This document shows positions 16,608-52,451 of a stretch of 64,000 bases of DNA, in pieces. The stretch's first letter is position 1. Every line of letters starts with the position of its first letter. A model generated the notes under the pieces. It saw nothing but the letters and a program-made list of their open reading frames with translations, had not been told where the DNA came from and did not search any database. The stretch comes from the human T2T-CHM13v2.0 reference genome, Homo sapiens, in contig CP068257.2 in NCBI GenBank assembly GCA_009914755.4, positions 7,072,001-7,136,000 on the forward strand. The letters are read 5' to 3'. A program made the translations under genes and the position numbers.

Positions 16608-17479
16608 GTTGTTTTTTTTAAAAGATACATTTCAACTCACTTCTCTAAGTTGGGAATACACACAGCCTGCCATCAGTTTGACATAAAACAAAAATTTTAG
16701 CGTTATCATATGCTAAATTTCTTTTACTAGGTTAAAAAAAATGTAGAATCCAAAGAGCTGTAAATGCAAATGACAAATACTGTACAAAATCTATCAAGCA
16801 ACTATAAGTCACAACTTGCAAGCTTTCTCCTCAGCAAATGAGTTAAAAAGAAAAGTATTTGAAACTTTCTTGGTGGAAAACGAATGACCTTTAGAAATGC
16901 CAACATTTTCCCCAGAGAATAGATTTGGTCTGAGTTCTTCATTTCTGAAATTGTAGAAGATAGGACCGCTTGGTTTGAAAGTCAAACTGCATCCTTCTAT
17001 AAAGGTTTTAGGTATTTTAAGTCTCCATACAAAACATTCCCCTTATTTTCATAACAAAAGGAACAATAAGACAGCTTAGACGGGGCAGAGAAAGAAAGGC
17101 CTTGAAACAAAGTCCCTGGAAAGGTAAAAACAACAACAAAAATAGTAAGTTAGAGCTCGTGTTAGATCTGATAACTCAAAACTGCACAACTTTTGCCATA
17201 CATCGAAAGCAACATGGGAAAACAGAAAAAGAGATCACAAACACTTTTTGAGTGTCCTAACTTGTAGAACCCCTAAGAATGAATCAAATACACTTGGACA
17301 AAGCTCTTTTTTTCTCTCTCTCCTTCAAGTCGCAGACTAGGGTTGTGGGGCGGGGGACAGGGAGTAAGACGGGGTCTCTAATAAATACAAAACCCAGCCT
17401 CTGACGTGTTTAATTGCTGACATTTTAGAAGAAAAATGGGCTACTTACAATTAATGAACCAAACTACCAAACTAAAATC

Positions 17480-18720
17480 ATGAGTAGGAGGAGGAGTAAA
17501 TGGAACTGTCTGGGCGAAGTTTCAGGAAGGCGCAAGCTGGGGTCGCTGCGCCCTCCCCCACCCATAGCTCGGGGCTCTCCAGTCGCTCCCGGCCCCCAGC
17601 GCGGACTTTCGGGCGCCGGCGGCCCAACCACACAGAGTTGGCAGGATGTAGCCCCCTTCTCCCCTCTCCAAGAGAGAAAAGCGCGAGGAGACGCAAACCG
17701 TATTTCCGTGTCCGAGCGTTGAAACCTGCGGAGTCGCGCGCGGGGCGCCCACACTCTTTCCCGGGGAGCCCCAGCCCGGTCGCCAGCCCCGGTCCCAGCT
17801 CCAGCCCAGGCCTCCCTTACTCTGGGGCTCCAAGGTCGGCTGCTCCCCGGCCTCCGCGGGCGAACGCCCGGGCTGGTAATGCCTCTCAGCCAAGGCCGGC
17901 GTCGCTACGGTTACCCTGACAACCCGGAGGCGGAGTGGGCTGAACCAGAGGGACAGCGAGCGGGAGGGACCAAAAGCCGCAGGAAGTGAGGGAGCGCGTG
18001 AGGATCCGCGCATCGCCGGGGACACTGAGCGACCGTAGAGGCCAGGTCACCGGCTGAGGACACTGCCCGTGAAGCCCGGTCAGGCGGTCGCGCCCTCCCT
18101 GGCGGCCCCCGCGGCCCCGCAGGACCTGTGCCCCGACGTCGCCGACCCGCGGCGTCCGTTGGGCGAGTGGGCCTGCCTGCGGGTAAGGCGCCGGCCCTGG
18201 ACCGCCCTCCCGGGACTGGAGAGGCGCCGCTGCAGGTAACAGCTGGGCCCCGGCTGCGGAAGGGGTCGGGGGTCGGCGCAGGGGCGGGCGCGCCCCGAGT
18301 CGTGTGGGCGGCACCGGCGCACCTGTTGTAGCCGCCTGGGGGTCCCCTGCCCACAGTTGGCCATGGACATTCCCCGCCCCGACTCTGAAACGCCGAGGGC
18401 GGCCTCCACGCCTCCTGCTCCGGGAGCCACGCCTCAGCGGGAGGACGGAGCCCTGCTGGCAGCCCTCGCACCAGGGTCTCCCTCTGAGCCCGGGCATGGG
18501 CCGGGCCTGGGGCGGTCCCTGGTGCCCCCCTGATGGGAAGCGTGGAGCAATGCGAGCCGCCGCCGTCGTCGCTGTCATCCCCAGTGAGCTGGGAGCGCCT
18601 CCTGAATCGCGAGAGCCAGGAGCACGGCTTTGACCGGCTTTGCCCGGCTTTGCCCCGTCATCCCCGTGTCCCATTTCAGGCAGGGGGCCCGGGTTGGATC
18701 TTTCTCACTGGCTTCGTTTT
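17480..18720. promoter_or_regulatory. CpG island, putative promoter/first-exon region of an unidentified gene. Candidate splice donors on + at 18184 (CTGCGG|GTAAGG) and 18237 (CTGCAG|GTAACA), and on - at 17449 (AATTG|GTAAGT)
   Basis: About 1.2 kb with very high G+C and dense CpG, in sharp contrast to the AT-rich flanks (e.g. 'gcgcgaggagacgcaaaccg...cgagcgttgaaacctgcggagtcgcgcgcggggcgcc'). Overlapping ORFs in many frames on both strands are typical of a CpG island rather than coding sequence. No Alu inside. Confidence 0.7.
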
Positions 18721-20930
18721 GTGTGTGTTGATTTGTTTCAGTCCTTCGCGTTTCCAGTTGAGTTACGGAATCTGCCCACACGTTTCATGGCCAAACTTTG
18801 TAGGGCTGTGAAACAATGTAACATTATCCCACACAATAGTCTTTAATACTGGTTTTAAAACACAGTGATGCAGGGTTTGCTTTAAGGAAGCTTTGAGGAT
18901 CACAAGGGATTATTATCTGGTAGGTTGTAAAAATTCAAACAACCGGGAGAGTATCATAGGTTCCGGAACACCGGAAGGAGGAAAGAAAAATGGAGAGGAC
19001 AGAAAAAGGATAAGCAAGAAAGTGCAGGGGCATTAAGGGTGTGGGGGGCTGCAGGATTGATTTGGTACTCAGGTCTGGAGATTATGGCCCCTCTATTAAT
19101 TCCAACCGCTGCTCCAGACAGTACTTGAGGGAAATGGAAGGAAGAGCCGTTTTGGGGGCCCTGCAAGTGATTAATAATCTTGCCAGTATAAAGATTTCCA
19201 CTCCATGGATGGCAAGGACACTAAGGAGAATTACTTTCCTCTTAGAAAGGGAATCATTGAGAGGTTAATTGAACTTGAGAAGCATATATTCTGTGATGGA
19301 AACTGACATTTATTATATTCTTCCAAATTAGGTTTTCCTCCTCTTAGACTATATGGGGACTTTTTCAGATTAATTGTCAAAACAAGAAGGTTTACGTGTG
19401 GATATTGACAAGCAGCGTGATATATACAGAACACATAATTCTTAACCTCAAGTATTAAGGTAATAAATTAAGGGTGGAAAGTAAACACTTCATGGAACCT
19501 TAACTCCCTGTTCCTGAAATTTGAAGACAGGGGCTTCATTTTTAGACAGAAAGTATCTAAAGATCAGCAGTACTCCTGTATCCAGTGGTTCTCAAGTTCT
19601 AGTTTACATATCATTAGCAAAATCACAAAGCGGTCTTTTCATTCAAGATGCAAATAGAGTGATCAGTATATCATAATCAAAAGTGACAAGATAGTGATTT
19701 AAAAAACACCTGGCATTTATTGACAAAAGAAAAGGTAGGATTAAGTCTGCTCAAACAGTAAAGGATTAGCATTAGTATTTTTTTAAAAAGAAGAAAAAAA
19801 CAGTGCAGGTTTCTATGCTAAAGTAGTAAGGACTGAAGAAGTTTTAAGTTTGGAAAAAATGGGGATATGTATTGGTGAAACACTTTGTAATCATATAGAA
19901 TGATTATTTTATCAGCAGCTGTGAAGTTGACTTTGAGGAAATTTTGAATTGAAATACTTTAGGTGACAAGTAAAGGCAACTGTGAAAAGCAACATTTGAT
20001 TTTAGGGGACAGGGTACCTGTGGAAGAAGACTGGTTAGGAGTGGAAGTGAGGCGTAAAAGCACTGAAATGTCTGAGGCAGGGACAATATTCAGTTTCTCT
20101 TCCTCTATCACCTAGTGCAATGTACTTGTTAAACGTTTTTGAATGAGTGAGAAGGGCTTTAGAGAAATTGCTTTGGATATAGGGATACACTTTACTATTG
20201 GAGAAAACACCCGAGATCAGAAAGTTGCTAATGAGATAGGGGTGGGGGATGAATGGTAAAGACACTGATTGTACCTTTTTGGAGTTTTCTACCATTGTGT
20301 TTTATTTCTTTTCACCGGCATGTTCAGTATGTTATTAGTGGTCAAATGAAAAGGAATTAAGTTCTATGTATATTTTTTTAAGTCTCCAAGCTCATTACTA
20401 GATAAAATAGTTACATTATTCTTTACTTTGCTGATGTTAAGCTAAATGTAGCAAACTGAAGCATTATGGATCGGGAATAACAAAGTAACAATGAAGAAAC
20501 AGATGTTGTCTTTTTCTTATTTAAATCTCTTGACTACTTCAGAATTCAAAGTAGAAATAACTTTAGTGGGAGGTTAACATTATTTAATGCAAATAGGTTG
20601 ATAAAAAATATAGCAAATGAGCATGCTATTAATAGTTCTGTCTTCTAGCCTTACTGTGGTAAGTTGAAGGAAGTTTTCATTTTTGTTTTTGTTAGTTTTA
20701 GGGTTTTTGTTTGTTTTTGTTTTCTTTACCAGAGTCAGGGTACTTTTTTCTCTATCTGATACTTTCTGAAATTCTTAAGGAGTTCGGTCAAAGGTGGAAA
20801 ACAATCAAATTTCTATTTTTGGTGTTTTCCTCTTTATTCTCCAAACTTGTCATGGTCTACATTCAATTTGTTGCACTCACATGGAATATCTATCTCTCAG
20901 CCGTTTACTCGTCCACAGTCTAAAGGAGAC

Positions 20931-21313
<383 letters not shown>

Positions 21314-29755: not shown

Positions 29756-32700
29756 TGGAATGGAATAGAATGAAATGGAATGGAGTTGAATGGGATGGAA
29801 TGGAATGGAATGGACTCGAATGAAATGGAATGGAATGGAGTCGAATGGAAAAGAACGGACTTGAATGGAATGGAATGGAATGGAAAGGAATGGAATGGAA
29901 TGGACTCAAAAGGAATGGAATGGAATGGACTCAAGTGGAATGGAATGGACTCGAATGCAATAGAATGGAATGGAATGGACTTGAATGGAATGGAATGGAA
30001 TGGAATGGAATGGAATGGACAGGAATGCAATGGAAGGGAATGGAATGGAATGCACTTGAATGGAATAGAATGGAAAGGAATGGAATGGACTGGAGTGATA
30101 TGGAATAGAAAGGACTCGAATGGAATGGAATGGACTATAGTGGAATGGAATGGAATAGAATGGACTCGAATGGAATGGAGTGGAATGGATTCGAATGGAA
30201 TGGAATGGAATTGAATGGATTCTAGTCAAACGGAATGTAATGGTATGGAATGGACGTGAATGGAATGGAATGGAATGGACTCGAATGGAATGAAATGGAA
30301 TGGAATTGACAGGAATAAAATGGAAAGGAAGAGATTGGAACGGATTGGAATGGAAAGGAATGGAATGCAATGGACTCGAATGCAATGGAATGTACTCGAA
30401 TGGAATGGAATGGAATGCAATAGAATGGACTCGAATGGAATAGAGCAGAATTTACTGGATTGGAATCTAATGGTATAGAGTCTAATGGAATGGAATGGAA
30501 TGGATTCGAATGGAATAGAATGGAATGGAATGGACTCGAATGGAATGGAATGGAATGGACAGAAAAGGTATGGAATGGAATGGGATGCAATGGAATTGCC
30601 TGGAGTGGAAGGGAATGGAATGGAGTGGAATGGAACGGAATGGACTTGAAGGGAATAGAATGGAATGGAAAGGAATGGACTCGAATGAAATGGAATGGAA
30701 AGGACTCAAATGCAATAGAATGGATTCGAATGTAATGTAATGTAATGGAATGGACTCGAATGGAATGGACTCAAGAGGAATGGAACGGAGTGGACTCGAA
30801 TGAAATGAAATGCAGGGGAAGGAACTCGAATGGCATGCAATGGAATGGAATAGACTCGAATGGAATGGAATGGAATGGACTCGAATGGAGTGGAAAGGAA
30901 TGGATCCGAATGGAAAGGAGAGGAATGGAATGGAATAGCATGGAATGGAATGGAATGGAATGGAATGGAATGGAATGGAATGGAATAGAATGGAATGGAA
31001 TAGAAGGGAATGGAATGGATTTTAATGGAATGGAATGGAATGGAATGGAATGGACTCGAACGGAGTGGAATGGAATCGAATGGAATGGAATGGAATGGAT
31101 TCGAGTGGAATACAGTGGAATAGTGTCGAATGGAATTCAAATGAATAAACACCAATGGAATGGAATGGACTTGAATGGAAAAGAAAGGAAATGACTCGAG
31201 TGGAATGGAATGGAAAGCAATAGAAAGGAAAGGAAATGACTCGAGTGGAATGGGATGGAATGGAATGGAATGCGCTCGAATGCAATGGAATGGAATTGAC
31301 TCGAATAGAATAGAAAGGAATGGACTCGAATAGAATGGAATGGAATGGAATGGGCTCGAATGCAATGGAGTGAAATGGACTCAAATGGAGTGGAAAGGAC
31401 TTAAATGGACTGGAATCGAATAGAATGCAACGGACTCGAATGGGATGGAATGGAAAGGACACGAATGGAACGGAATGGAATGAAATGGAATGGAATGGAT
31501 TGGAATGGAATGGGATGGAATGGAATGGAATGAAATGCAATGGGATGGTATGGTATGGATTGGAATGGACTTGAATGGAATAGAAAAGGATGGAATGGAA
31601 AGGAATGCATTTAAAAAGAATGGAATGGAATGGAATCCAATGGAATGGAAAGGCCACGAACTGAATGGAATGTAATGGAAGGGAATCGAATGGAATAGAT
31701 TGGAATTTAGTGGAATGGAATCTAATGGAATGGAATGGAATGGATTCGAATGTAATAGAATGGAATGGAATGGATTCGAATGTAATAGAATGGAATGGAA
31801 TGGAAAGGAATGTACTGTAATGGAATGGAATGGAACCAAATGGAATCGAATGGAATGGAATTTAAAAGATTCGATTGGAATGGAATGTACTCAAATGGAA
31901 TGGAATGGAATGGAAACAACTCGAGTGGAATGAAATGGAATGGAATGGAATCAAATGTAATGGAAAGGGATTGAATGGACTCGAATGGAATGGAATGGAA
32001 AGGAATGGCATGGTCTCGAGTGGAATGGAACGGAATGCAACTCAGTGGAATCGAATGGAATGGAATTGACTCAAATAGAATTGAATGGAATGGACCAGAA
32101 TGGAATTAAATGTAATGGAATGGACACACATGAAATGGACTCGAATGGAATGGAATGGAATGAAAAGGAATGGAATGGAATGGAATGATTTCGAATGGAA
32201 TGACATGGAATGATTTCGAATTGAATGACATGGAAAGGACTCGAATGGAATGGGTTGGGATTGGATGGTCTCGAATGAAATTGAATGGAATGAACTCAAA
32301 TGGAATGGAATGGAATAGAATGGACAAGAATATAATGGAATGGAATTGGCTCGAATGGAATGGAATTGATTCGAGTGGAATGGAATGGACATGAAAGGAA
32401 TAGAATGGAATGGACTCGAATGGAATGGAATGGACTCAAATGGAATGGAATGGAATGGACTCAAATGGAATAGAGTGGAATGGAATGGAATCGAATGCAA
32501 TGGAATGGAATGGACTCAAACAGAATGGAATGGACTCCAGTGGAATGGAATGGAATGGTATGGTCTCAAATGGAATGGAATGGAATGGAACAGATTCAAA
32601 TGGAATAGAATGGAATGGAATCAAATCTAATAGAGTGGAATGGAATGGACTCGAATGGAATGGAGAGTAATGGAATCGAACGGAAAGGAATGGAATTTAA

Positions 32701-35700
32701 TGAATTCCAATGGAATGGAGTGGAATTGAATGGACTCAAAAGAAATGGATGGGAATGCAATGAAATGGACTGGACTGGAAAGGAATGGAATGGAATGGAC
32801 TCGAATGGAATGGAAGGGACTCGAATGGAGTGGAGCCGAATGGATTCAAATGGAAGGTAATGGAAAGGAATGGAATGAACTCGAATGTAATGGAATGGAC
32901 TTGAATGGAATGGAAGGGACTCAGAGTGTAGCCGAATGGATTTGAATGGAATGGAATGGAATGGAATGGAATGAACTCGAATGGAATGGAATGTAATGGA
33001 ATGAAATGGACTCGAATGGAATGGCATGGAATGGAGTCGATGGAAGGGAATGGAATGGAATGGCATAAAATGGAATGGAATGGACTCAAATGTAATGCAG
33101 TTGAATAGAATGTACCTGAAAGGAATGGAGTGGAATGGAATGCAATGAAATGGACTCGAACGGAATGGAATGGAATGGAATGGAATGGAATGGACTCAAA
33201 TGAAATGGAATGGACAGGAAACGAATGGAATGGAATAGAATCGACTCGAGTGGAATGGAAGGGAATGGACTCGAATGAAATGGAATGCAGTGGAATAGAC
33301 TGGAATGGAATGCAATGGAATGAAATAAACTCGAATGGAATGGAATGGACTCGAATAGAAGGGAATGGAATGGACCTGAATGGAATGGAATGGAATGGAA
33401 GGGAACAGAATGGAAAAGAATGGATTGGAATAGAATGGAATGGAATCAAGTGAACTCAAATGGAATGGAATGGAATGGACTCGAATGGAATAGAATGGAA
33501 TTTACTGGATTGGAATCTAACAGAATTGACTCTAAAGAAATGGAATGGAATGCACCCGAATGGAAGCGAATGGAATGGAATGGACTCGAATGGAATGGAA
33601 TGGAATGGAATGGAATGGAATGGAATGGAATGGAATGGAACTGAATGGAATGGAGTTGAATGCAATAGAATGGAATGGACTCGAATGAAATCGAATGGAA
33701 TGGAGTCAAATGGAATGGAATGGAATGGAATGGACTCAAAAGGAATGGAATGGAATGGAATCAAGTGGAATGGAATGGACTCGAATGCAATAGAATTGAA
33801 TGGAATTGAATCGAATGGAAATGAATGAAATGGACAGGAATGGAATGGAATGGAATGGAATGGAATGGAATGGAATGGAATGGAATGGAAAGGGATGGAC
33901 TGAAATGGAATGGAATGGAATGGACTGAAATGCAATGGAATGGACTTGAATGGAATAGAATGGAAAAGAATGGAATGGACTCGAATGATATGGAATACAA
34001 AGGACTCGAATGGAATGGAATGTACGCTAGTGGAGTGGAATGGGATAGAATGGCCTCAAATGGAATGGAGTGGAATGGATTCGAATGGATTGGAATGGAA
34101 TTCAATGGATTTGAGTCAAACGGAATGTAATGGTATGAAAATGGACTCGAATGGAATGGAATGGAATGGACTTGAATGGAATGGAATGGAATGGAATGGA
34201 AAGGAATAAAATGGAATGGAATAGAATGGAATGGAATAGAATGGAATGGACTTGAATGCAATGGAATGGATTCGAATGGAATAGAGAGGAATTTACTGGA
34301 TTGGAATCTAATGCTACGGACTCTAACGGAATGGAATGGAATAGACTCAAAAGGAATAGAAAGGAAGGGAATGGACTCGAATGGAATGGAATGAAATGGA
34401 CACGAAAGGTATGGAATGGAATGGGATGGAATGGAAGGGACTGGAATGGAAGGGAATGGAATGGAGTGGAATGGAACGGAATGGACTTAAATGGAATAGA
34501 ATAGAAAGGAAAGGAATGGACGCAAATGAAATGGAATGGAAAGGACTCAAATGCAATGGAATGGATTCGAATGGAATGGAATGGACTTGAATGTAATCGA
34601 ATGGAATGGACTCAAGTGGAATGGAATGGAGTGGACTCGAATGAAATGGAATACAGGGGAAGGAACTCGAATGGCATGCAATGGAATGGAATAGACTCGA
34701 ATGGAATGGGATGGAATGGAATCGAATGGAGTGGAATGGAATTGACACGAATGGAATGGAACGGAATGGGATGGAATGAAATGGAATGGAATGGAGAGGA
34801 ATGGAATGGAATGGAATGGAGAGGAATGGAATGGAATGGAATGGATTGGAATAGAATGGAAAGGAATGGAATGGAATAGAAAAGGAAGGTAATGGAATGG
34901 AATGGAATAGAATGGAATGGAATGGATTTTAATGGAATGAATTGGAATGGAATGGAGTCAAATGGAGTGGAATGGACTCGAATTGAATGGAATGGAATGG
35001 AATGCACTCGAGTGGAATAGAGTGGAATTGACTCGAATGGAATTCAATGGAATGAACTCCAATGGAATGGAATGGACTCGAATGGAATGGAAACGACTCG
35101 AGTGGAATGGAATGGATTGGAAAGGAATGGAAAGGAAATGACTGGAGTGGAATGGAATGGAATGGAATGGAAGGTACTCGAATGGAATGGAATGGAATTG
35201 ACTCGAATGGAATAGAAAGGAATGGACTCGAATAGAATAGAATGGAATGGAATGAACTCAAATGCAATGGAGTGGAATGGACTCGAATGGAATGGAAAGG
35301 AACTAAATGGACTGGAATCAATTGGAATGCAACAGACTCGAATGGAATGGAATGGAAAGGACATGAATGGAATGGAATGGAATGGAATGGAATGGAATGG
35401 AATGGAATGCTATGGGATGGTAAGATTTGGATTGGAATGGACTTGAATGGAATAGAAAGGGATGGAATGTAATGAATTTAAACAGAATGGAATGGAATCG
35501 ACTCCAATGGAATGGAAAGGCCACGAATTGAATGATATGGAATGGAACAGACTGGAATGCAATAGATTGGAATTTAGTGAAATGGACTCTGATGGAATGG
35601 ACTGGAATGGAATCGAATGTAATACAATGAAATGGAATGGAAAGGAATGTAATTTAATAGAATGAAATGGAATCAAACGGAATGGAATTTAAAGGACTTG

Positions 35701-37500
35701 AATGGAATGAAATGTACTCAAATGGAATGGGATGGAATGGAAACGACTTGAGTGGAATGAAATGGAATGCAATGGAATTGAATGAAATGGAATGGGATTG
35801 AATGGACTTGAATGGAATGGAATGGAATGGCATGGTCTCGAATGGAATGGAATGCAATTGAATGGACTCAAAAGGAATGAAATAGAATTGACTCGAATGG
35901 AATTGAATGGAATGGACCAGAATGGAATTAAGTGTGATGGTATGGACACGAATGAAATGGAAAGGAATGGTCTCAAATGGAATAGAATGGAATGGAATGG
36001 AATGGAATGATTTCAGATCAAAGGACATGGAATAGACTCGAACGGAATGGGTTCGGATTGGATGGTCTCGAATGTAATGTAATGGAATGGACTCAAATGG
36101 AATGGAATGGAATAGAATGGACTCGAATATAATAGAATGGAATTGGCTCGAATGGAATGGAATGGATTCGAGTGGAATGGAATGGTCACGAATGGAATAG
36201 AATGCAATGGATTCGAATGCAATGGAATGGAATTGAATGGACTCTAATGGAATGGAATGGACTTGAATGCAATGGAATGGAATGGATTCGAATGGAATGA
36301 AATGGACTCCAGTGGAATGGAATGGAATGGTATGGTCTCAAATGGAATGGAACGGATTCAAATGGAACAGAATGGAATGGACTCGAATCTAATGGAGTGG
36401 AATTGAATGGACTCAAATGGAATGGAGGCTAATGGAATTGAGTGGAATGGAAAGGAATTTAAAGGACTCAAATGGAACGGAATGGAATTGAATGGACCCA
36501 AAAGTTATGGATTGGAATGGACTCGAATGGAATGGAATGGAATGGACTCGAATGGAATGGAAGGGACTCTAATGAAATGGAATTGAAAGGAATCCACTCG
36601 AGTGAAAAGGAATAAAATGGAATGGAATGCACATGAATGGAATGGAATGGAGTTGACTCGAAAGGAATAGAAAGGAATGGACTCGAATGGAATGAAATAG
36701 AATGCAATGGACTCGAATGGAATAGAGTGGAATAGAACCGAATGGAAAAGAATAGAATAGAGTCGAATTGAATGAAGTGGAATGGAATGAACAAGAATGG
36801 AATTGAGTGGAATGGACTCGAAGAGAATGGAATCGAATTGAAAGGACAGGAATGGAATGGAATGCAATGGAATGGAATGGAATGGAAAGGAATGGAATGG
36901 AAAGGAATGGAATCGAATGGAATGGAACGTAATGGAATGAAATGGACTCGAATGGAATGGAATCCAATGGAATGGACAGGAATGAAATAGAATGGAAATG
37001 AAAAGAATGGAATGGAATGGACTCAATGGAAATCAACTGAATTGAATGGACTCGAAAGGAATGGAATGGAATGGAATGGAATGGAGTGGAATGATATGGA
37101 CTTGAATAGAATGGAATGGAATAAAATGGAATGGAATGGTGTCGAATGGGAGTGAATGGAAAGCAATGGAATGGACTCAAATGGAATGGAATGGAATTGA
37201 CACAATTGGAATAGAATGGAATGGAATAGACTCTAAAGGAATGGAATGGAATGGACACGAAACATATGGAATGGAATGGGATGGGATAAAATGGACTGGA
37301 ATGGAAGGGAATGGAATGGAGTGGAATGGAATGGAATGGAATTCAATGGAATAGAATGGAATGGAATAGACTCTAAAGGAATGGAATGGAATGGACACGA
37401 AACATATGGAATGGAATGGGATGGGATAAAATGGACTGGAATGGAAGGGAATGGAATGGAGTGGAATGGAATGGAATGGAATTCAATGGAATAGAATGGA
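29756..37500 (+). repeat. Two diverged copies of a ~3.85-kb higher-order repeat (copy A ~29,756-33,640, truncated at the array edge; copy B ~33,645-37,500)
   Basis: Colinear similarity at a constant offset of ~3.81-3.90 kb across the whole interval. Examples: 29,775-29,990 vs 33,645-33,830; 30,445 'gaatttactggattggaatctaatgg' vs 34,287; 30,650-30,800 vs 34,500-34,650; 31,310-31,470 vs 35,213-35,370; 32,215-32,400 vs 36,020-36,200. Also seen as similar artifactual ORF translations at the same offsets. Confidence 0.75.
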
Positions 37501-37504
37501 ATGG

Positions 37505-39240
37505 AATGGAATGGATTCGAATGAAATGGAATGGAAAGGACTCGAATGCAATAGAATGGATTTGAATGTAATGTAATGGAATGGAATGGACTCAAAACGA
37601 ATGGAACGGAATGGACTCAAGTGGAATGGAATGGAATGGACTCGAATGGAATAGAATGGAATGGAATGGAATGTACTCGAATGGAATGGAATTGAATGGA
37701 CACGAATGGAATGGAATGAAGTGGAATGGAATGAACTGGAATGGAATGGAATGGAGTGGAATGAAAAGGAATGGACTTGAATTGAATAGAATGGAGTGGA
37801 ATGGAATGGACTCGAATGAAATGAAATGGAAAGGACCTCAATGCAATGGAATGGACTAGAATGGAATGTAATGGATTGGTATGGACTCGAATGGAATGGA
37901 ATAGAATGGACTAAAGAGGAATGAAATGAAATATATTCGAATGGAATATAATGGAAAGGAAAGGGCTCGTATGGAATGGAATGGACACGAATGGAATGGA
38001 ATGGAGAGGAATGGAATGGACTGGAATGGAATGGAATGGAACGGAAAGGAATGGAATGAAATGGAATGGGCTAGAATGGAAGAGAATGGAATGGAATGGA
38101 ATGAACTCGAATGAAATGGAGTGGAATGGACTCGAATGGAATGGAATGGATACGAGTGGAATGGAATGGAATCGAATGGAACGGAATGGAAAGGAATCAA
38201 ATGGAATTTAATGGAATGGAATGGAATGGAATGGAAAGGAATGGACTCGAATGGAATGCAGTGGAATGGATTCGAATGGAATGGAATGGAATGAAAGGGA
38301 ATCGAAGAAATGGAATGGAATGGAATGGACTCGAATGAAATGGAATGTAAAGGACTCGAATGCAAAGGAATGGAATCAAATGTAATGTAATGGAATGGAC
38401 TAGAATGGAATGGAACGGAATGGACTCAAGTGGAATGGAATGGAATGGACTCAAATGGAATAGAATGGAATGGAATGGAATGTACTCGAATGGAATGGAA
38501 TTGAATGGACATGAATGGAATGGAATGAAGTGGAATGGAATGGACTGGAGTGGAATGGAGTGGACTGGAATGGAATGGAATGGAGTGGAATGGAATGGAG
38601 TGGAATGGAAAGGAATGGAAATGAACGGAATAGAATGGAGTGGTATGGAATGGACTCGAAGGAAATGGAATGGAAAGGATTGAATACAATGGGATGGACT
38701 CGAATGGAATGTAATGGATTGGAATGGACTCGAATGGAATGGAATGGAATGGACTAAAGAGGAATGAAATGAAATATATTCGAATGGAATATAACGAAAA
38801 GGAAAGGGCTCATATGGAATGGAATGGACACGAATGGAATGGAATGGAATGGACTGGAATGGAATGGAATGGAGTAGAATGGAATGGAAAGGAATGGAAT
38901 GGAATGGGCTAGAATGGAATAGAATGGAATGGAATGGAATGCACTCGAAATAAATGGAATGGAATGGACTCGAATGGAATGGAATGGACATGAGTGGAAT
39001 GGAATGGAATCGAATGGAAAGGAATGGAAAGGAATCAAATGGAATTTAATGGAATGGAATGGAATGGAATGGACTCAAATGGAATGCACTGGAATGGATT
39101 CGAATGGAATGGATTGAAACTGAATGGACTCGAGTCGAACGGAATGTAATAGTAAGGAATGCACTCAAATGGAATGGAATTTAATGGAATGGAATGAAAG
39201 GGACTTGAAGAAATGGAATGGAATGGAATGGAATGGAATG
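37505..39240 (+). repeat. Two copies of a ~0.83-kb repeat block (37,505-38,340 and 38,340-39,240), related to a sub-segment of the 3.85-kb unit
   Basis: 37,581-37,760 vs 38,399-38,580 ('...MEWNGMYSNGMELNGHEWNGMKWNGM...' in both ORF translations); 37,926 vs 38,769 (MKYIRMEYN...); 38,140-38,330 vs 38,980-39,240. Contains a perfect 2x140-bp tandem duplication at 37,211-37,490 just upstream. Confidence 0.7.
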
Positions 39241-40321
39241 GAATAGAATGCAATGGAATGGACAAGAAAGGAGTGCAGTTGAATTGAATGGACCCAAAAG
39301 GAATGGAATGGAATGGAATGGAAGGCAGTGGACTCGAACAGAATGCAACGGAAATGACTAAAATGGAATGGAATGGACTCGAATGGAATGGAATGGAATG
39401 GAATGGACTCGAAAGGAATGGCATGGATTGCACCCGAATGGAATGGAATGTTATGGAAAGTAAAGGACTCGAATGGAATGGAATGGAATGGAATTCACCC
39501 AAATGGAGTGGAATGGAATGCAATGGACTCGAATTGAATGGAACGCAATGGACAAGAATGGAATGGAATGGAATGGAATAGAATGGACTGGAATGGAATA
39601 GCTTGGAATGGAATGGACTTGAATGCAATGGAATGTAATGGACTCGAAAGGAATGGAATGGACTCAAACGGAATGGAGTGGACTGGGCTCAAATGGAATG
39701 GAATGGAATGGAATGGTCTCGAGTGGAATGGAAAGTAACAGAAGGGAATGAATTCGAATGGAATAGAATGGATTCAAATGGAATAGAATGGATACGAATG
39801 GAATGGAATGGAATGGATTAAAATGAAATGGAATGGAATGGAATCGACTCGAATGAAATGGAATGCAGTGGAATGGACTGGAATGGCATGCAATGGAATG
39901 GAAGAAACTTGAATGGAATCAAATGAACTCGAATGGAAGGGAATGGAATGGTTGCGAATGGAATGGAATGGAACGGAATGGCATGGAATGTAATGGAATA
40001 GAATGGAATAGAATTGATTAGAAAGGATTGGAATAGAATGGAATGGAATGGAATAGACTGAAATGGAATGGAATGCAATGGACTCGAATTGAATAGAGTG
40101 GGATATACTGGATTGGAATTTAATGGAATTTGACACTAATGAAATGGAATGAAATGGACTCAAATGAAATCAAATGTAGTGGAATGGACTCGTATGGAAT
40201 GGAATGGACACGAATGAAATGGAATGGAATGGAGTTGAATGGAATGGAATGGAATGGAATGGAAGGGAATGGAGTTGAATGGAATAGAATGGAATGGACT
40301 CGAATGAAATGGAATGGAATG
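39241..40321 (+). repeat. Copy 1 of a near-identical ~1.08-kb duplicated satellite block
   Basis: Colinear with 40,783-41,867 at offset ~1,542 bp, estimated 98-99% identity by eye, with a few substitutions and one GGAATGG indel. Confidence 0.85.
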
Positions 40322-40782
40322 GCCTCGAATGGAATGGAATGGAATGGAATTGACACTAATGGAATTGAAGGGAATGGACCCGAATGGAATGGAATGGACT
40401 TCAATTGAATGCAGTGGAATTCATTGGGCTCAAATGGAATGGAATGGAATGGAATGGAATGGAATGGAATGGAATGGAAAAGAATGGAATGGAATAGAAT
40501 GGAATGGGATTGAATGGAATGGACATGAATGTAATGGAATGGACTCAAATGGAATAGCATGGAATGGAATGGAATGGACTCAAGTGGAATAGCATGGAAT
40601 GGAATGCACTTGAATACAATGGAGTGGAATGGACCCGAATGGAATAGAATGGCATTGAACGGATTCAAATGCAATGGAACGTAACGGAATAGAATGAACT
40701 CGAATGGAATGTAATGTAACGGAATGAAATGTGTTCAAACGCATTGTAATACAATGGAATAGAATGGAATGGAATGGAATGG

Positions 40783-41867
40783 AATAGAATGCAATGGAAT
40801 GGACAAGAAAGGAGTGCAGTTGAATAGAATGGACCCAAAAGGAATGGAATGGAATGGAATGGAAGGCAGTGGACTCGAACAGAATGCAACGGAAATGACT
40901 AAAATGGAATGGAATGGACTCGAATGGAATGGAATGGAATGGACTCAAAAGGAATGTCATGGATTGCACCCGAATGGAATGGAATGTTATGGAAAGTAAA
41001 GGACTCGAATGGAATGGAATGGAATGGAATTCACCCAAATGGAGTGGAATGGAATGCAATGGACTCGAATTGAATGGAACGCAATGGACAAGAATGGAAT
41101 GGAATGGAATGGAATGGAATAGAATGGACTGGAATGGAATAGCTTGGAATGGAATGGACTTCAATGCAATGGAATGTAATGGACTCGAAAGGAATGGAAT
41201 GGACTCAAACGGAATGGAGTGGACTGGGCTCAAATGGAATGGAATGGAATGGAATGGACTCGAGTGGAATGGAAAGTAACAGAAGGGAATGAATTCGAAT
41301 GGAATAGAATGGATTCAAATGGAATAGAATGGATACGAATGGAATGGAATGGAATGGATTAAAATGAAATGGAATGGAATGGAATCGACTCGAATGAAAT
41401 GGAATGCAGTGGAATGGACTGGAATGGCATGCAATGGAATGGAAGAAACTTGAATGGAATCAAATGAACTCGAATGGAAGGGAATGGAATGGTTGCGAAT
41501 GGAATGGAATGGAACGGAATGGCATGGAATGTAATGGAATAGAATGGAATAGAATTGATTAGAAAGGATTGGAATAGAATGGAATGGAATGGAATGGAAT
41601 AGACTGAAATGGAATGGAATGCAATGGACTCGAATTGAATAGAGTGGGATATACTGGATTGGAATTTAATGGAATTTGACACCAATGAAATGGAATGAAA
41701 TGGACTCAAATGAAATCAAATGTAGTGGAATGGACTCGTATGGAATGGAATGGACACGAATGAAATGGAATGGAATGGAGTGGAATGGAATGGAATGGAA
41801 TGGAATGGAAGGGAATGGAGTTGAATGGAATAGAATGGAATGGACTCGAATGAAATGGAATGGAATG
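40783..41867 (+). repeat. Copy 2 of the near-identical ~1.08-kb duplicated satellite block
   Basis: See copy 1. Homology stops at ~41,867 ('gactcgaatgaaatggaatggaatgg' then divergent), so this is a duplicated block, not a strict tandem repeat. Confidence 0.85.
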
Positions 41868-44800
41868 GAGTTGAATGGAATGCAATGGACTCAAATGGAT
41901 TGGAATGGCATGGACACGAATGGAATGAATTGGAATGGCATGGACAACAATGGAATGGAATGGACTTGAATGGAATGGACTAGAATGGAATAGAATGGAA
42001 TGGAATGGAGTTGAATGGAAGAGAATCGAAGGGAATGGAATGGACTTGAATGGAAGAGAAGCGAAGGGAATGTAATAGACTCGAATGAAATGGAATTGAA
42101 TGGACTCGAATGGAATGGGAAGGATTCGAATGGAATAGAATGGACTCGAATGGAATGGAATGGAATGGACTGTAATGGAATCGAATGGAATTCAGTGGAA
42201 TGGAAGTTAATGGAACGGAATGAAATGGAATGGACTTGAATCAAATAGTATGGAAACGAATGGAATGGACTCCAATGAAATGGAATGGAATGGACTCTAA
42301 TGGAATGGAATTGACTCGACTGGAATGGAATGAAATGGAATGGACTCAAATAAAATGGAGAGGAATGGATTCGAAAGGAATGGAAAGGAATTGACTACAA
42401 TGGAATGGAAAGGAATGGACTCAAATGGATTTGAATATAATGGAATGGAATAGAGTGGAATGGAATCGAATGGAATTCGAATGGAATTGAATGGACTCGA
42501 ATCAAATGGAATGTAATGGACTGGAATGGACTCGAAAGGAATGGAGTTGAAAGGAGTCTAATGGAATGGAATGGACTCGAATGGAATAGAATGGAATGGA
42601 ATGGAACTAAAAGGAAGGGAATTGAATGGACATGAAATGTATGGAATGCAATGGAACGGACTGGAATGGAATGGAAAGGAATGGATTGAAATGGAATGGA
42701 ATTGACGTTAATGGAATAGAATGGAATGGAATGGAATGTACTCGAATGGAATGGAATTGAATGGACATGAATGGAAAGGAATGAAGTGGAATGGAATGGA
42801 ATGGGATGGAATAGGATGGAATGGGATGGAATGGAATGGAATGAAATGGACTGGAATGGAATGGAATGGAATGGAGTGGAAAGGAAAGGAATGGACTTGA
42901 ATGGAATAGAATGGAGTGGAATGGAATGGACTCGAATGAAATTGAATGCAAAGGACTTGAAAGCAATGGAATGGACTTGAATGAAATGTAATGGATTGGA
43001 ATGGGCTCGAATTGAATGGAATGGAATGGACTCAAGAGGAATGGAATGGAATAGAGTCGAATGTAATATAATGGAATGGAATGAGCTCGAATGGAATGGA
43101 ATGGAGTGGAATGGAATGGACTAGAATAGAATGGAATGGAATGGAATGGACTTGAATGGAGTAGAAAGGAATAGAAGGGAATGGATTCGAATGAAATGGA
43201 ATGGAATGGATTCGAATGGAATGGACACGAGTGTAATGGATTGGAATGGACTCAAGTGGAATGGAATTGAATCGAATGGAATGGAGTGGAATGGATTCGA
43301 ATGGAATGGAATGGAATTGAATGGACTCGAGTTGAATGGAATGTAATGGTAAGGAATGGGCTCGAATGGAATGGAATGGAATGGAATCAAAGGGACTCGA
43401 ATGAAATGGAATGGAATGGAATGAACTCGAATTAAATGTGATGGAATGTAATGGAATGGAATGGACACAAATGGTATGCAGTGGAATTGAATTGACTCGA
43501 AAGGAATGGAATGGAATGGAATGGACTCGAAAGGAAAAGAATGGAATGGAATGGAGTGGAATGGAATGGAATTGAGTGGAATGGAATAGAATGGAATGGA
43601 ATGGACTCCAATGGAATGGAATGGTCTCGAAGGTAATTGAATGGAATGAAAGCGACTCAAATGGAATTGAATGGAATGGAATGGACTCTAATGGGATAGA
43701 ATGGAATTGAATGGATTCTAATGGAATCGAATGCGCTGGAATGGATTGCAGTTGAATTGAATGGATCTGAAAAGAATGGAATGGAATGGTCTGCAATAGA
43801 ATGGAATGGAGTGGAATGGAATGGAATGGAACAGAATGGACTTGAATGGGATGCAAAGGAATGGACAGGAGTCTAATGGAATGGAATGGAATGGACCCAA
43901 ATGGAATGGAATGGAATAGAATGAAATGGAATGGAATGGACTTGAATGGAATGTAATGGACACGAATGGAATGGAATGGAAGGGGATGGAATGGAATGGA
44001 ATGGAATGGAAAGGAATGGACCAGAATGGAATGCAATGGAATGGACTGGAATGGAATGGAATGGTATGGAAAGGAATGGACTTGAATGGAATGGATTGGA
44101 ATGGACTCGAAAATAATGGAATGGAATAGATTCGAACGGAATGGAATGGACACAAATGGAACGGAATGTAATGGAATGCACTCGAATGGAATACAATGGA
44201 ATTAAATTGAATATGCTCTAATGGAATGGAATGGAATGGAATGGACTAGAATGGAATGGAAAGAAATAGAGTCGAATGGATTGGAATGCAATGGAATATA
44301 CTCAAATGGAATTTAATGGAATGGACTAGAATGAAATTGAATGGACTGGAATGGAATGCAGTTAAATTGAATGGACACGAAAGCAATGGAATGGATTGGA
44401 ATGGAATGGAATGGAATGAAATGGAATGAAATGGACTCAAAAGGAATGCAATGGGATGGAATAGACTCGAATGGAATGGAGTGGAATAGAATGGAAAGGA
44501 CTCGAATGGAATGGAATGGACACGAATGGAATGGAATGGAATCGACTCAAACTGAATGGAATGGACTCGAATGGAATGGAATAGAATGGAATTGAGTCTA
44601 AAGGAATTGAATGGAATGTACCCGAATGGAATGGAATGAAATGGATTGTTCTCGAAAGGAATGGAATGGAAGGAATGGAATGGAATGGAATGGAAGGAAT
44701 GCAATGGAATGGAACGGAATGGAATCGAATAGAATGGAGCCGAAGGGACTCGAATATAATGGAATGGAATTGAATGGACTGGAATGGAATGGAATGTAAA

Positions 44801-47800
44801 GAAATGGAATGAACTCGAATGGAATGGAATGTAATGGAATGAAATGTACTCGAACGGAATGGAATGGAATGCAATGGACTCGAGTGGAATGGTATGGAGT
44901 GGCATGGAATGGCATGGAATAGAATGGAAATGACTGAAATGGAATGCAGTTGAATTGAATTGACCTGAAAGGAATGGAATGGAATGGAATGGAATGCAGT
45001 GGAATGGAAAAGAAAGGAATGAAATGCACTCGAATGGAATGGAACGGTACAGAATGGACTCAAATGAAATGGAATGGACCCAAACGAAATGTAATGGAAT
45101 GTAATTGACTCCAGTGCAATGGAATGGAATGGACTCGAATGAAATGGCATGCAGTGGAATGGACTGGAATCGCATGCAATGGAAAGGAATAGACTCAAAT
45201 GGAATGGAAGGGAATGGAATGGACTCTAATGTAATGGAATGGACACGAATGGAATGGAAAGGAATGGAATAGAGTTTAACAGAATGGAATGACATGGATT
45301 GGAATATAATGGAATGGAATGGAATGGACTCAAATGGAATGTAATGGAATGGACTCGAATGGAATAGAAAGGAATTTACTGTATTGGAGTCTAATGGAAT
45401 GGACTCAAATGTAATGCAAAGGAATGGAATCGAATGGAATCAAATGGAATCGAATGGATTCAAAGGGAATGAAATGGAATGGAAAGGAATGGAATGAAAT
45501 GGAATGGAATTGTGCTGAATGGAATAGAATGGAATGGAATGGACTCGAATGAAATGGAATGGAATGGAGTCGAATAGAATGGAATGGACTCGAATGGAAT
45601 GGAATGGACTCAAGTGGAATGGAAATAAATAGCTTCGAGTGCAATAGAAGGTAATGGAATGGACTCGAAAGGAATTTAATGGAATGGAGTCGAATGGAAT
45701 GGAATGGAATGGAACGGAATATACTTGTATGGAATAGAAATGAAAGGAATGGAATGGACTCGAATGAAATTGAATAGAATGGAAAGGAATGTAATGGACA
45801 CGAATAGAATGGAATGGAAACAACTAGAGTGAAATGGAATGGTATGGAATTGAATGCACTCAAATGGAACGGAATGGAATTGACACTAATGGAATAGAAA
45901 GGAATGGACTCCAATGGAATGCAATGGAGTGGAATGGACTCTAATGGAACGGAGTGGAATGGATATGAACGTAATGGAATGGATTGGAATGGAATGGAAT
46001 GGAATGGACTTGAATGGAATAGAATGGAAAGGAATGGAATGGACTAGAATGAAATGGAAAATAATGGACTCGAATGGAATGGAATAGACTCCAATGGATT
46101 GGAATGGAATGGACTCAAAAGGAATGGAATGGAATGGAATGGACTCAAGTGGAATGGAATGGAATGGACTCGAATGTAATAGAATGGAATGGAATAGAAT
46201 GGAATGGAATGGACTCGAATGGAATGCAATGGACATGAATGGAAAGTAATGGAATGGAATAGAATGGACTGTAATGGAATCGAATGCAATGCAATGGAAT
46301 GGAATGGAATGGAAAGGAATGGACTTGAATGGAATAGATTGGAAACGAATGGAATAGACACGAATGAATTGGAATGGAACAGAATCTAATGGAATGGAAT
46401 TGACTTGACTGGAATGGAATGAAATGGAATGGACTCAAGTGGAATGGAGTGGAATGCAAACGAAAGGAATGGAATAGAATTGACTAGAATGGAATAGAAA
46501 GGAATGGACTCGAATGGATTGGAATATAATGGAATGGATTCAAATGGAATTAAGTTAAATGGAATCGAAAGGAATTCGAATGGAATTGAATGGACATGAA
46601 TGGAATGGAATGGAATGGAATGGACTCGAAAGGAATGGAGTGGAAATGACATGAATGGAATGGAATGGACTCGAATGGAATGGAATGGACTTAAGTGGAA
46701 TAGAATGGAATGGACTCAAATTGAATGGAATGGACTCGAATGGAACAGAATGGAATGGAATGGAATGTACACGAATGGAATGAAATTGAATGGACAAGAA
46801 TGGAATGGAATGGAATGGAATGGAAAGGAATGGCACGGAATGGAATGGAATTGACTGGAATGGATAGCAATGGACTTAAATGGAATACAATGGAGTGGAA
46901 GGGAATGGACTCGAATGAAATGGAATGGAAAGGACTTGAAAGCAATGGAATGGACTCGAATGGAATGTAATGGATTGGATTGGAATGGACTTGAATGGAA
47001 TGGAATGGAATGAACTCAACAGGATTGGAATGGAGTAGACTCAAATGGAATATAATGGAAAGGATTGGGCTCGAGTGGAATGGAATGGACATGAATGGAA
47101 TGGAATAGGGTGAAATGTAATGGATTATAAAGGAATGGAATGGACTTGAATGGAATAGAATGGAATGGAAAGGAATGGACTCAAATGAAATGGAATGGAA
47201 TGGACTTGAATGGAATGGAATGGACACGAGTGGAATGGAATGGAATGGACTCGAAAGAATGGAATGGAATTCAATTGAATAGAATGGAAAAGAACAGGAA
47301 GGAATGGAATGGAATGGAATGGACTCGAACGGAATGGAGTGGAATGGATTCGAATGGAATGGAATGGACTCGTATTTAATGGAATGGAATGCAATGACAG
47401 GGACTCAAATGAAATGGAATGGAATGAAATGTACTCGAATTTAATGCAATGGATTGTAATGGAATGGAATGGAATCAAATGGTATGGAATGGAATTGACT
47501 GGAATCGAAAGGAATTGAACAATATAGAATGGACTCAAAAGGAATGGAATGGAATTGAATGGAATGGAATGGAATGGAATGGACTCGAATGGAAGGGAAT
47601 GGAATGGACTCCAAAGGAATGAAATAGTCTTGAAGGGAATAGAATGGAATGAAAACGACTAGAGTGGAATGGAATGGAATGCAATGGACTCTAATGGGAT
47701 AGAATGGGATTGAATGGACTCTAATGGAATGCAATAGTATGGAATAGAACGGAATGGACTGGAATGGAATGGAATGCAGTTGAATTGAAAGGATCCGAAA

Positions 47801-50800: not shown

Positions 50801-52451
50801 TGGAATGAAATGGACTCGAATGGAATACAATGGAATTTAAATGAATAGAATCTATTGGAATGGAATGGAATGGTCTCGAATGGAATAGAATGGAATAGAC
50901 TCGAATGGAATGGAATTAAATAGAATACAATGGACACGAATGGAATGGAATGGAATGCAATAACATGGAATGGTATGGATTGGAATGGATTTGAATGGAA
51001 CAGAATGGGAGGGAATGGAATGAATTCAAAAGGAAAGGAATGGAACGGAATGCAATGGAATGGAAAGGCCACGAGTGGAATGGAATGGAATGAAATAGAA
51101 TAGATTGCAATTTAGTGAAATGCACTCTAAATGAATTGAATGGAATGGACTTGAATGCAATAGAATGGAATGGAATCGAATGGAATGAAATGGAATGGAC
51201 TTGAATGGAAAAGAATAGAATGGAGTGGAACGGAATGGATTAGAATGGAATTGAGTTTAATAGACTCGAATGGAATGGAATGTAAGTAAAAGGACAGGAA
51301 TGGAAAGGAATGTAATGGAATGGAATGGAAAAGAATGGTATGGAAAGAATGGAATGCAATAGAATGGAATGGAATGGATTGGAATGGAATGGACTCGAAT
51401 GGAATGTAATGGAATCGACCCAAATAGAATGTAAAGGAATGGAATAGACTCGAAAGGAATGGAAAGGAATGGAATGGACTCGAATGGAATGGACTCGAAG
51501 GGAATGGTATGTAATGGCATCCAATGGAATGGAATGGAATGGACTCTATTGAAATAGAATGTACCCAAATGGAATGGAATGGAGTGGAATGGAATGGAAT
51601 GCAACGGAGAGGAATGGAGAGGAATGGAATGGAATGGAGAGGAATGGAATGGAATGGAATGGAATAGATTGGAATGGAATTGATTGGAATAGAATGGAAT
51701 GGAAAGGAATGGACTCAAACGGAATGGAATGCGGTCGAATGGAATGAAATGAAATGGAATGACCTCGAATGGAATAGAATGGAATTTACTGGATTGGAAA
51801 CCAATGGAATGGACTCGAATGGAATGGAATGGAATGGACTCGAATGGAATGGAATGGTATGGACTCGAATGGAATTAAATGGAATGGGATGGACTCGAAT
51901 GGAATGGAATGGAATGGACTCAAATGGAAAAAGAGTGGATTGGAACGGCCTCGAATGAAATGGAATGGAATGGAGTCAAATGGAATGGTATGGACTCAAA
52001 CGGAGTGGAGCCGAATGGATTCGAATGGAATGGACTGGAATGGAATGGAATGAATTCGAATGGAATGGAATGGAATGGAATGAAATGGACTCAAATGGAA
52101 TGGCATGGAAAGGACTCGAATGGAATGGAAAGAAATGGAATGGAATGGAATGAAATAGAATGGACCCGAAGGAAATGGAATGGAATAGAGTCGATTTGAA
52201 TGAAATGGAATGGAATGGTCCCGAATGAAATGGAATGCAGTGGAATCGACTGGAAAGGCATGAAATGGAATGGAATAAACTCGAATGGAATGGAATGGAG
52301 TCGAATGGAACGTAATGGAATGGACCCGAATGGAATGGAATGTAATGGAATAGAATAGAATGGAACAGAATGGATTGGAATAGAATGGAATTGAAAGGAG
52401 TGGACTCAAGTGGAATGGAATGGAATGGACTCGAATGGAATAGAATGGAAT

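What the first reader, a model, noticed from the sequence alone, without database searches (positions are those of the whole stretch)
17480..18720. Strong CpG island about 11 kb from the heterochromatin block, probably a gene promoter
This is the only GC-rich, CpG-dense segment in the window and it is free of Alu insertions, as expected for a functional promoter. It has GT-AAG type donor motifs on + at 18,184 and 18,237, and a consensus GTAAGT donor on the minus strand at 17,449. A small ATG-initiated reading frame at 18,362 has 56 codons. The large overlapping ORFs on the minus strand (up to 262 aa) show no frame consistency and look like GC-content artifacts. A promoter this close to a multi-Mb-class satellite is a candidate for position-effect or heterochromatin-spreading regulation. 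The gene could not be identified from sequence alone.
Basis: partly seen in the sequence, partly recalled or inferred. Interest (0 to 1): 0.55.

Follow-up and report, generated by a model that had tools for sequence, protein, structure and literature searches.

The report
Ordinary CpG island beside HSat3 satellite
A real 1.3-1.4 kb CpG island, most likely an ordinary TATA-less promoter whose gene I could not name, lies 11 kb from a (GGAAT)n satellite array, and nothing in the sequence shows that the satellite regulates it.

Summary
Window 17,401-18,800 is the only CpG island in the 64 kb. Non-repeat background has obs/exp 0.21, and no other 1,241-bp window holds more than 22 CpG. The island is Alu-free and is not a tandem repeat. 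It lies 11,036 bp from a (TGGAA)n HSat3-type array that fills 29,756-64,000.

Flanking Alus have lost 46-96% of their CpGs, and the island shows no TpG/CpA excess. This implies long-term germline hypomethylation, or a recent copy of such an island. It is the only sequence evidence for function.

No ORF in or near the island matched any protein, PDB chain or Rfam family.

The most likely reading is a CpG-island promoter for a non-coding transcript or an untranslated first exon. Direction and gene are unresolved because the tools hold no human genome or transcript data. The position-effect idea has no support, and published T2T data report sharp H3K9me3 boundaries at satellite edges. This is ordinary and low interest.

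The parts
17401..18800 (.).
   Evidence: GC 67-71%, 125-130 CpG, o/e 0.81-0.83, TpG+CpA o/e 1.00. The 100-bp profile keeps o/e at 0.58-1.02 from 17,500 to 18,799. No Alu, no substantial tandem repeat, no Rfam match at E<=1.
17516..17528 (+). Perfect trimeric heat-shock-element consensus GAAgtTTCagGAA at the left edge of the island
   Evidence: It is the only match to GAANNTTCNNGAA on either strand in 64 kb. 1.5 are expected by chance window-wide, so it is not significant by count, and its position inside the island was noticed post hoc.
17980..17987 (+). ETS-like core CAGGAAGT near the centre of the island
   Evidence: Motif scan. 1 observed vs 0.29 expected, p=0.26, so it is not independent evidence.
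18202..18515 (.). Cluster of GC boxes (GGGCGG at 18,282, 18,306, 18,397, 18,510; CCGCCC at 18,202, 18,374); no TATA or CCAAT box anywhere in 17,200-19,000
   Evidence: The count of 6 vs 4.5 expected from composition (p=0.28) fits a TATA-less CpG-island promoter but is not diagnostic.
18180..18241 (+). Two plus-strand 5' splice-site-like motifs (G of GT at 18,183, PWM 9.1 bits; 18,236, 7.0 bits)
   Evidence: The number of donor-like sites in the island equals the chance expectation.
17443..17451 (-). Minus-strand 5' splice-site-like motif ATT|GTAAGT (G at 17,448). All three minus-strand frames have a stop upstream of it, so any exon ending here is untranslated at its 3' end
   Evidence: minus-strand ORFs end at 17,464, 17,478 and 17,522.
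18363..18533 (+). 56-codon ATG ORF (MDIPRP...LVPP*) with no evidence that it is coding
   Evidence: GC by codon position 0.79/0.72/0.72. The exact sequence is absent from a 15-billion-protein collection, and the homology search found nothing.
17886..18674 (-). 262-aa ORF, a GC-composition artefact
   Evidence: null p=0.29, flat codon-position GC. No homologue and no gene call on record.
29756..64000 (+). (TGGAA)n HSat3-type satellite array with the G-rich strand on +; it runs off the window end
   Evidence: TRF period 5, 6,851 copies. GC skew about +0.65. 24-mer typing is closest to HSat3A1, then A2 and B5. There are no HSat2 24-mers and no CAACCCGA motif.

Best explanation
The segment is a bona fide CpG island that has stayed unmethylated in the germline for a long time. 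It most likely serves as a broad, TATA-less RNA polymerase II promoter. In that model, Sp1-type and ETS-type factors and the unmethylated-CpG machinery hold it open, transcription may start divergently from the central part, and first exons end at one of the nearby GT donors. Its product within this window is non-coding. It is either a lncRNA or the untranslated first exon of a gene whose coding exons lie beyond the window (minus strand) or are very short. Shown: the island exists, it is unique in the window, it retains its CpGs, and no recognisable coding sequence is present. Inferred: promoter activity, direction and gene identity. The neighbouring HSat3 array is simply the next feature along the chromosome, and no functional link is indicated.
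For: The island meets all criteria: GC 70.7%, o/e 0.81, 125 CpG in 1,241 bp, against 0.21 in 23 kb of non-repeat background. CpG decay contrast: 13 full-length flanking Alus keep only 1-14 of about 26 consensus CpGs and show TpG+CpA o/e of 1.19-1.53, while the island has 1.00. The flanks have therefore been methylated and deaminated and the island has not. CpG o/e drops to 0.24-0.36 within 500 bp on both sides. It is not a repeat: no Alu, no tandem structure, no Rfam family. It is TATA-less and CCAAT-less, with GC boxes, an ETS core and donor-like sites on both strands. These fit the promoter reading but are not above chance. No coding signal: the ORF lengths match the null. Concatenated ORFs of the island, of the minus strand at 1-17.4 kb and of the plus strand at 18.5-29.7 kb found no protein at E<=1e-5. 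That collection does hold human and vertebrate proteins, as the H4_HUMAN look-up shows. There were no PDB matches apart from an L1 ORF2 relic. Background knowledge: most high-CpG islands of this size coincide with transcription start sites, and many 'orphan' ones also show promoter marks (Illingworth et al. 2010, from memory).
Against: There is no direct evidence of transcription, because no human genome, transcript, CAGE or methylation resource was available. Every promoter-type motif and splice motif is at the frequency expected for 67-71% GC sequence. GC skew does not significantly indicate a start site or direction. A recent segmental duplication of an island could keep a high CpG o/e for several million years even if it is now methylated and silent. 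The protein-search negatives have a caveat. An old L1 ORF2 fragment (6,054-6,224) that matches PDB L1 ORF2p at 1e-11 was expected at roughly E~4e-7 by scaling for database size, but it was not reported. Sensitivity of the concatenated-query searches is therefore unproven. ORFs shorter than 30 aa were not tested.
Confidence: 0.6

Rival explanations
1. Silent or orphan island: a copy of a promoter island carried here by pericentromeric segmental duplication (a pseudogene or truncated gene remnant). It would now be methylated or Polycomb-bound and would drive no stable transcript.
For: Regions that border HSat arrays are often duplication-rich (general knowledge). No coding exon or known RNA was found anywhere in the 30 kb of non-satellite sequence. 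No motif is enriched above chance.
Against: CpG o/e of 0.81 with no TpG/CpA excess across 1.3 kb means any silencing by methylation is evolutionarily recent. Neighbouring Alus have lost 46-96% of their CpGs. The flanks look like ordinary Alu-rich unique sequence with graded shores, not a mosaic of duplicons. I could not test for paralogous copies.
Confidence: 0.22
2. The island functions mainly as a chromatin boundary or insulator, or as a distal regulatory element between the Alu-rich euchromatin and the satellite, rather than as a gene promoter.
For: Its position is 11 kb from the array edge. T2T data show sharp H3K9me3 boundaries at satellite edges, so boundary activity must exist somewhere.
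Against: No consensus CTCF core was found with the degenerate patterns used. The sharp boundary reported lies at the last satellite repeat, not 11 kb away. Unmethylated islands are promoters far more often than dedicated insulators (general knowledge).
Confidence: 0.07
3. A heat-shock-responsive promoter that fires toward the satellite. HSF1 would bind the perfect HSE at 17,516-17,528, plus-strand transcription would read through 11 kb into the array, and the result would be G-rich (GGAAU)n SatIII-type RNA.
For: The only perfect trimeric HSE in 64 kb lies at the island's edge. The array's G-rich strand is the + strand. Stress-induced SatIII RNA is reported to be mostly the G-rich strand (PMC2241877, abstract).
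Against: One HSE is within chance for the window (1.5 expected). Plus-strand AATAAA/ATTAAA hexamers occur from 19,462 onward, including an A-rich run at 21,220-21,266, so read-through over 11 kb is not favoured. Published work places HSF1 on the satellite repeats themselves, mainly 9q12 and Y. This array lacks the CAACCCGA motif that I recall, from memory, as typical of 9q12-type HSat3.
Confidence: 0.03
4. The island contains a protein-coding first exon, for example the 56-codon ORF at 18,363 or the short MRAAAVVAVIP... start at 18,551 spliced at the CA|GTGAGC donor-like site I noted by eye near 18,585, which was not scored.
For: GCCATGG gives good start-codon context at 18,363. Donor-like sites lie downstream.
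Against: No homologue and no exact deposit for any island ORF. There is no codon-position GC bias. ORF lengths are as expected by chance.
Confidence: 0.05

Closest known systems
High-CpG (HCP) CpG-island promoters of vertebrate genes
   Same: Length of about 1.3 kb, GC of about 70%, CpG o/e of about 0.8, sharp shores, no TATA box, GC boxes and an ETS core, donor-like sites on both sides, and exclusion of Alu insertions.
   Different: No transcript, TSS or chromatin evidence could be obtained here. Motif content is not above the composition-matched expectation. No downstream coding exons were found in the window.
Orphan CpG islands (intergenic islands without an annotated TSS; Illingworth et al. 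2010, from memory)
   Same: An isolated island in a gene-poor, repeat-rich setting, with no recognisable gene in 30 kb.
   Different: Whether it is truly unannotated is unknown, because I could not map it to a reference annotation.
HSF1-driven Satellite III transcription units (nuclear stress bodies)
   Same: Adjacency to an HSat3 array whose G-rich strand matches the strand of the known SatIII RNAs, and one perfect HSE in the island.
   Different: Known SatIII transcription is attributed to HSF1 binding within the arrays (mainly 9q12 and Yq), not to a unique upstream CpG island. The array type here is closest to HSat3A1/A2, not the chromosome 9 subfamily B5.

Membership tests
CpG island (Gardiner-Garden & Frommer 1987; Takai & Jones 2002) | Length >=200 bp (>=500 bp in the strict definition) | tested here: met
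   1,400 bp contiguous block, 17,401-18,800
CpG island (Gardiner-Garden & Frommer 1987; Takai & Jones 2002) | G+C >=50% (>=55% strict) | tested here: met
   67.1% for the block and 70.7% for 17,480-18,720
CpG island (Gardiner-Garden & Frommer 1987; Takai & Jones 2002) | CpG observed/expected >=0.6 (>=0.65 strict) | tested here: met
   0.83 and 0.81; background is 0.21
CpG island (Gardiner-Garden & Frommer 1987; Takai & Jones 2002) | Not explained by an Alu or another CpG-rich repeat | tested here: met
   No Alu match between 16,620 and 20,931. No sizeable tandem repeat. No rRNA, snRNA or other Rfam match. Other interspersed repeat classes could not be screened because no RepeatMasker library was available.
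Active RNA polymerase II promoter | A mapped transcription start site (CAGE, 5' ESTs, annotated first exon) | not testable with these tools
   No human transcript or genome annotation resource was available.
Active RNA polymerase II promoter | Unmethylated DNA with H3K4me3 | tested here: inconclusive
   Only indirect evidence: CpGs are preserved with no TpG/CpA excess, while flanking Alus have decayed. This indicates germline hypomethylation over evolutionary time and says nothing about the present state.
Active RNA polymerase II promoter | Core or proximal promoter motifs above background | tested here: not met
   GC boxes 6 vs 4.5 expected, ETS core 1 vs 0.29, donors 4 vs 3.1, all with p>0.25. 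No TATA or CCAAT box. GC skew is not significant.
Protein-coding first exon | An ORF with homologues or coding statistics | tested here: not met
   No hits. ORF lengths and codon-position GC are as in random sequence.
HSF1-responsive promoter | At least one array of three or more inverted nGAAn units | tested here: met
   GAAGTTTCAGGAA at 17,516-17,528, though a single site is within the chance expectation for the window.
HSF1-responsive promoter | Stress-induced HSF1 occupancy and transcription | not testable with these tools
   Needs ChIP-seq and RNA-seq data.

The most novel reading that the evidence does not exclude
The island is a unique-sequence, HSE-bearing promoter positioned upstream of an HSat3 array and oriented so that read-through would make G-rich (GGAAU)n RNA. 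It would be a defined single-copy entry point for stress-induced satellite III transcription at a non-9q12 array. That would make the initiation of satellite transcription genetically tractable.
Probability: 0.03. Interest if true: 0.6.

Novelty: already known. Interest (0 to 1): 0.12.

Why it matters
As it stands, this matters little. CpG islands are routine landmarks, and this one almost certainly already appears in the CpG-island track of the human reference, and probably in its gene tracks too. Two points are useful for the scan. First, the only sequence-level argument for function is CpG retention relative to the decayed flanks. The splice motifs, GC boxes and ORFs add nothing beyond base composition. 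Second, proximity to a satellite is not in itself evidence for position-effect regulation, because published T2T chromatin maps show abrupt heterochromatin boundaries. If the island turned out to be silenced variably between individuals or cell types in step with array size, it would be a convenient single-copy reporter of HSat3-adjacent chromatin state.

Tried and rejected
1. Naming the gene.
- Three large protein searches used concatenated stop-to-stop ORFs: the island on both strands, minus-strand ORFs at 6.6-17.4 kb, and plus-strand ORFs at 18.5-29.7 kb together with minus-strand ORFs at 1-6.6 kb. All returned nothing at E<=1e-5. A first attempt failed on the 5,000-aa limit.
- The collection does contain human and vertebrate proteins (H4_HUMAN).
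- An L1 ORF2 relic included was not reported, although I expected it at about 4e-7. I therefore treat these negatives as suggestive only.
- PDB phmmer of ORFs from 1-6.7 kb (both strands) and 6.6-17.4 kb (minus strand) found only L1 ORF2p.
- Exact look-ups of five island ORFs and a gene-call look-up of the 262-aa ORF were negative.

2. KRAB, zinc-finger and SCAN exons. A ZNF pseudogene seemed possible if the locus were pericentromeric chromosome 10. tblastn found nothing better than E=0.33.

3. Known RNA families. Rfam at gathering threshold over 30.5 kb found only a U2-like copy at 23.8 kb. Rfam at E<=1 over 16.6-20.9 kb found nothing.

4. Direction of transcription. GC skew is not significant. 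The distributions of poly(A) hexamers and donor-like sites are not decisive.

5. Chromosome assignment from the satellite. The 24-mers of Altemose 2014 Table 1 favour HSat3A1 (chromosomes 10, 13, 21, 22), then A2. The A1 24-mer is generic, however, and only 2 exact copies occur, so this is a hint and not a placement.

6. Higher-order repeat. The 1,541-bp periodicity is a local duplication at 39.2-42 kb only.

7. Repeat origin. SVA, LTR or rDNA origin of the GC-rich block is rejected. There is no VNTR structure and no rRNA hit. The absence of LTR-like ends is judged by eye only.

Full report
**Setting.** The window is primate DNA. Coordinates 1-29.7 kb are AT-rich (37% GC outside repeats) and packed with Alu elements. 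From 29,756 to the end of the window, a pentameric (TGGAA)n array fills 34.2 kb (TRF period 5, 6,851 copies). Its GC skew is about +0.65, so the G-rich strand is the + strand. Typing with the subfamily-specific 24-mers in Table 1 of Altemose et al. 2014 (PMC4022460) gives no HSat2 matches. The best matches are to HSat3A1 (2 exact, 36 with at most one mismatch), followed by A2 and B5. The CAACCCGA motif is absent. The array is therefore HSat3. Its total size cannot be known from the window, and HSat3 arrays range from about 1 kb to 28 Mb (PMC11526998).

**Checking the observation.** Sliding 200-bp windows that meet GC>=0.5 and CpG o/e>=0.6 merge into a single long block, 17,401-18,800.

The two other qualifying 200-bp windows are marginal (8-9 CpG), and one lies inside an Alu. 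The maximum CpG count in any other 1,241-bp window of the non-satellite part is 22, with a mean of 11.2. The island contains no Alu and only trivial micro-duplications. It matches no Rfam family, even at E<=1.

It lies 11,036 bp from the array.

**What carries information and what does not.** The informative signal is the contrast in CpG decay.
- The 13 full-length Alus around the island retain 1-14 of about 26 consensus CpGs (o/e 0.05-0.61). They show a TpG+CpA excess of 1.19-1.53, which is the footprint of methylation-driven deamination.
- Non-repeat background has a CpG o/e of 0.21.
- The island has o/e 0.81 and a TpG+CpA ratio of exactly 1.00, with shores falling to 0.24-0.36 within 500 bp.

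Either the island has been protected from germline methylation for tens of millions of years, or it is a recent copy of such an island.

All are at chance:

| Feature | Observed | Null expectation | Fraction of simulations reaching observed |
|---|---|---|---|
| Donor-like sites (>=6.9 bits) | 4 | 3.1 | 0.37 |
| GC boxes | 6 | 4.5 | 0.28 |
| ETS core | 1 | 0.29 | 0.26 |
| Longest stop-free stretch | 272 aa | 245 +/- 62 | 0.285 |
| Stretches >=100 aa | 9 | 7.5 | 0.27 |

Codon-position GC is flat in every ORF. GC skew changes sign near 17,925 but is not significant in any third of the island. There is no TATA or CCAAT box.

**Looking for a gene.** No tool here holds the human genome or its transcripts, so I searched for coding exons indirectly.
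- Concatenated stop-to-stop ORFs (>=30-35 aa, Alu-like ones removed) went to the 5.8-billion-protein search in three sets: the island on both strands; the minus strand to its left; and the plus strand between the island and the satellite. Nothing scored E<=1e-5.
- The collection does include human and vertebrate proteins (H4_HUMAN).
- One caveat applies. An old L1 ORF2 fragment at 6,054-6,224, which matches PDB L1 ORF2p at 1e-11, was in the last query and was not reported. Scaling for database size, I expected it at about 4e-7. The negatives are therefore suggestive, not conclusive.
- PDB searches, exact-sequence look-ups of island ORFs, a gene-call look-up and a tblastn for KRAB, zinc-finger and SCAN modules were also negative.

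All three minus-strand frames hit a stop before the GTAAGT donor at 17,448, so an exon ending there would be untranslated at its 3' end. The simplest reading is that any transcript from this island is non-coding within the window. It would be either a lncRNA or a 5'-UTR exon followed by an intron longer than 17 kb on the minus strand.

**Most likely mechanism.** I commit to a conventional CpG-island promoter at confidence 0.6. In this model, unmethylated CpG-dense DNA is kept nucleosome-depleted and H3K4-methylated. Initiation is dispersed and probably divergent, and first exons are defined by a nearby 5' splice site. Only the island and its evolutionary hypomethylation are shown. Activity, direction and product are inferred from what is generally true of islands of this class.

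The rivals are:
- a silent or duplicated relic island (0.22);
- a boundary or distal regulatory element (0.07);
- a coding first exon (0.05);
- a heat-shock promoter feeding the satellite (0.03).

**The position-effect suggestion.** The sequence offers nothing for it. The preserved CpG content argues that the island has not been subject to long-term germline methylation despite its neighbour. [quoted passage not shown] At 11 kb, the default expectation is therefore no spreading. The idea remains testable but is not supported.

**A lead, not a finding.** The only perfect trimeric heat-shock element in the 64 kb (GAAGTTTCAGGAA, 17,516-17,528) sits at the island's left edge. A plus-strand transcript from the island would run toward the array and, if it read through, would carry the G-rich strand. 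That is the strand reported to dominate stress-induced SatIII RNA (PMC2241877). However, one HSE is within chance for the window (1.5 expected). Several poly(A) hexamers lie between the island and the array. Published work places HSF1 on the repeats themselves. I give this 3%.

**Verdict.** This is a real but ordinary feature: a CpG island of a well-known kind, probably already annotated in the reference genome. Novelty is 'already known' and interest is 0.12. A BLAT to T2T-CHM13, followed by inspection of the annotation, CAGE and methylation tracks, would settle gene identity, direction and activity in minutes.

Noticed in passing
window 17,516-17,528: This is the only perfect trimeric heat-shock element (GAAnnTTCnnGAA) in the whole 64 kb. 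It lies at the edge of the CpG island, and the adjacent HSat3 array has its G-rich strand on the same (+) strand. It is within chance by count (1.5 expected).
   Followed up: partly
window 23,776-23,912 (+): A U2 snRNA-like sequence (Rfam RF00004, 61.4 bits, E 5e-10) lies between the island and the satellite. The 137-bp match spans model positions 1-192, so it probably has internal deletions and is a pseudogene.
   Followed up: no
window 6,054-6,224 (-): Relic of the C-terminal part of an old L1 ORF2 (PDB L1 ORF2p, E 1e-11). The large protein-collection search that included it did not report it, which raises doubt about the sensitivity of that search with long concatenated queries.
   Followed up: partly
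window 29,415-29,756: The satellite begins abruptly. By my recollection of L1 sequence, the stretch just before it (...TTTGCAAATATTTTCTTACATTCTGTAGGTTG...) looks like the 3' part of an L1. An Alu at 29,121-29,411 lies immediately before that. No transitional or degenerate satellite zone is visible.
   Followed up: no
window 39,200-42,000: A local duplication with a 1,541-bp (+/-5) period inside the HSat3 array. The rest of the 34 kb shows no higher-order repeat at the 24-mer level.
   Followed up: partly
window 29,756-64,000: 24-mer typing places the array closest to HSat3A1, then A2 (reported on chromosomes 10, 13, 14, 21, 22 and Y). It has no chromosome 9-type CAACCCGA motif and no HSat2 signature. 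This weakly hints at a chromosome 10 or acrocentric origin.
   Followed up: partly
window 13,037-13,131: A 47-bp unit duplicated in tandem at 97% identity, in otherwise unique sequence.
   Followed up: no
window 18,625-18,655: A 10-bp unit, CGGCTTTGCC, repeated 3.1 times at the right end of the island. It is a possible small polymorphic repeat inside the island.
   Followed up: no
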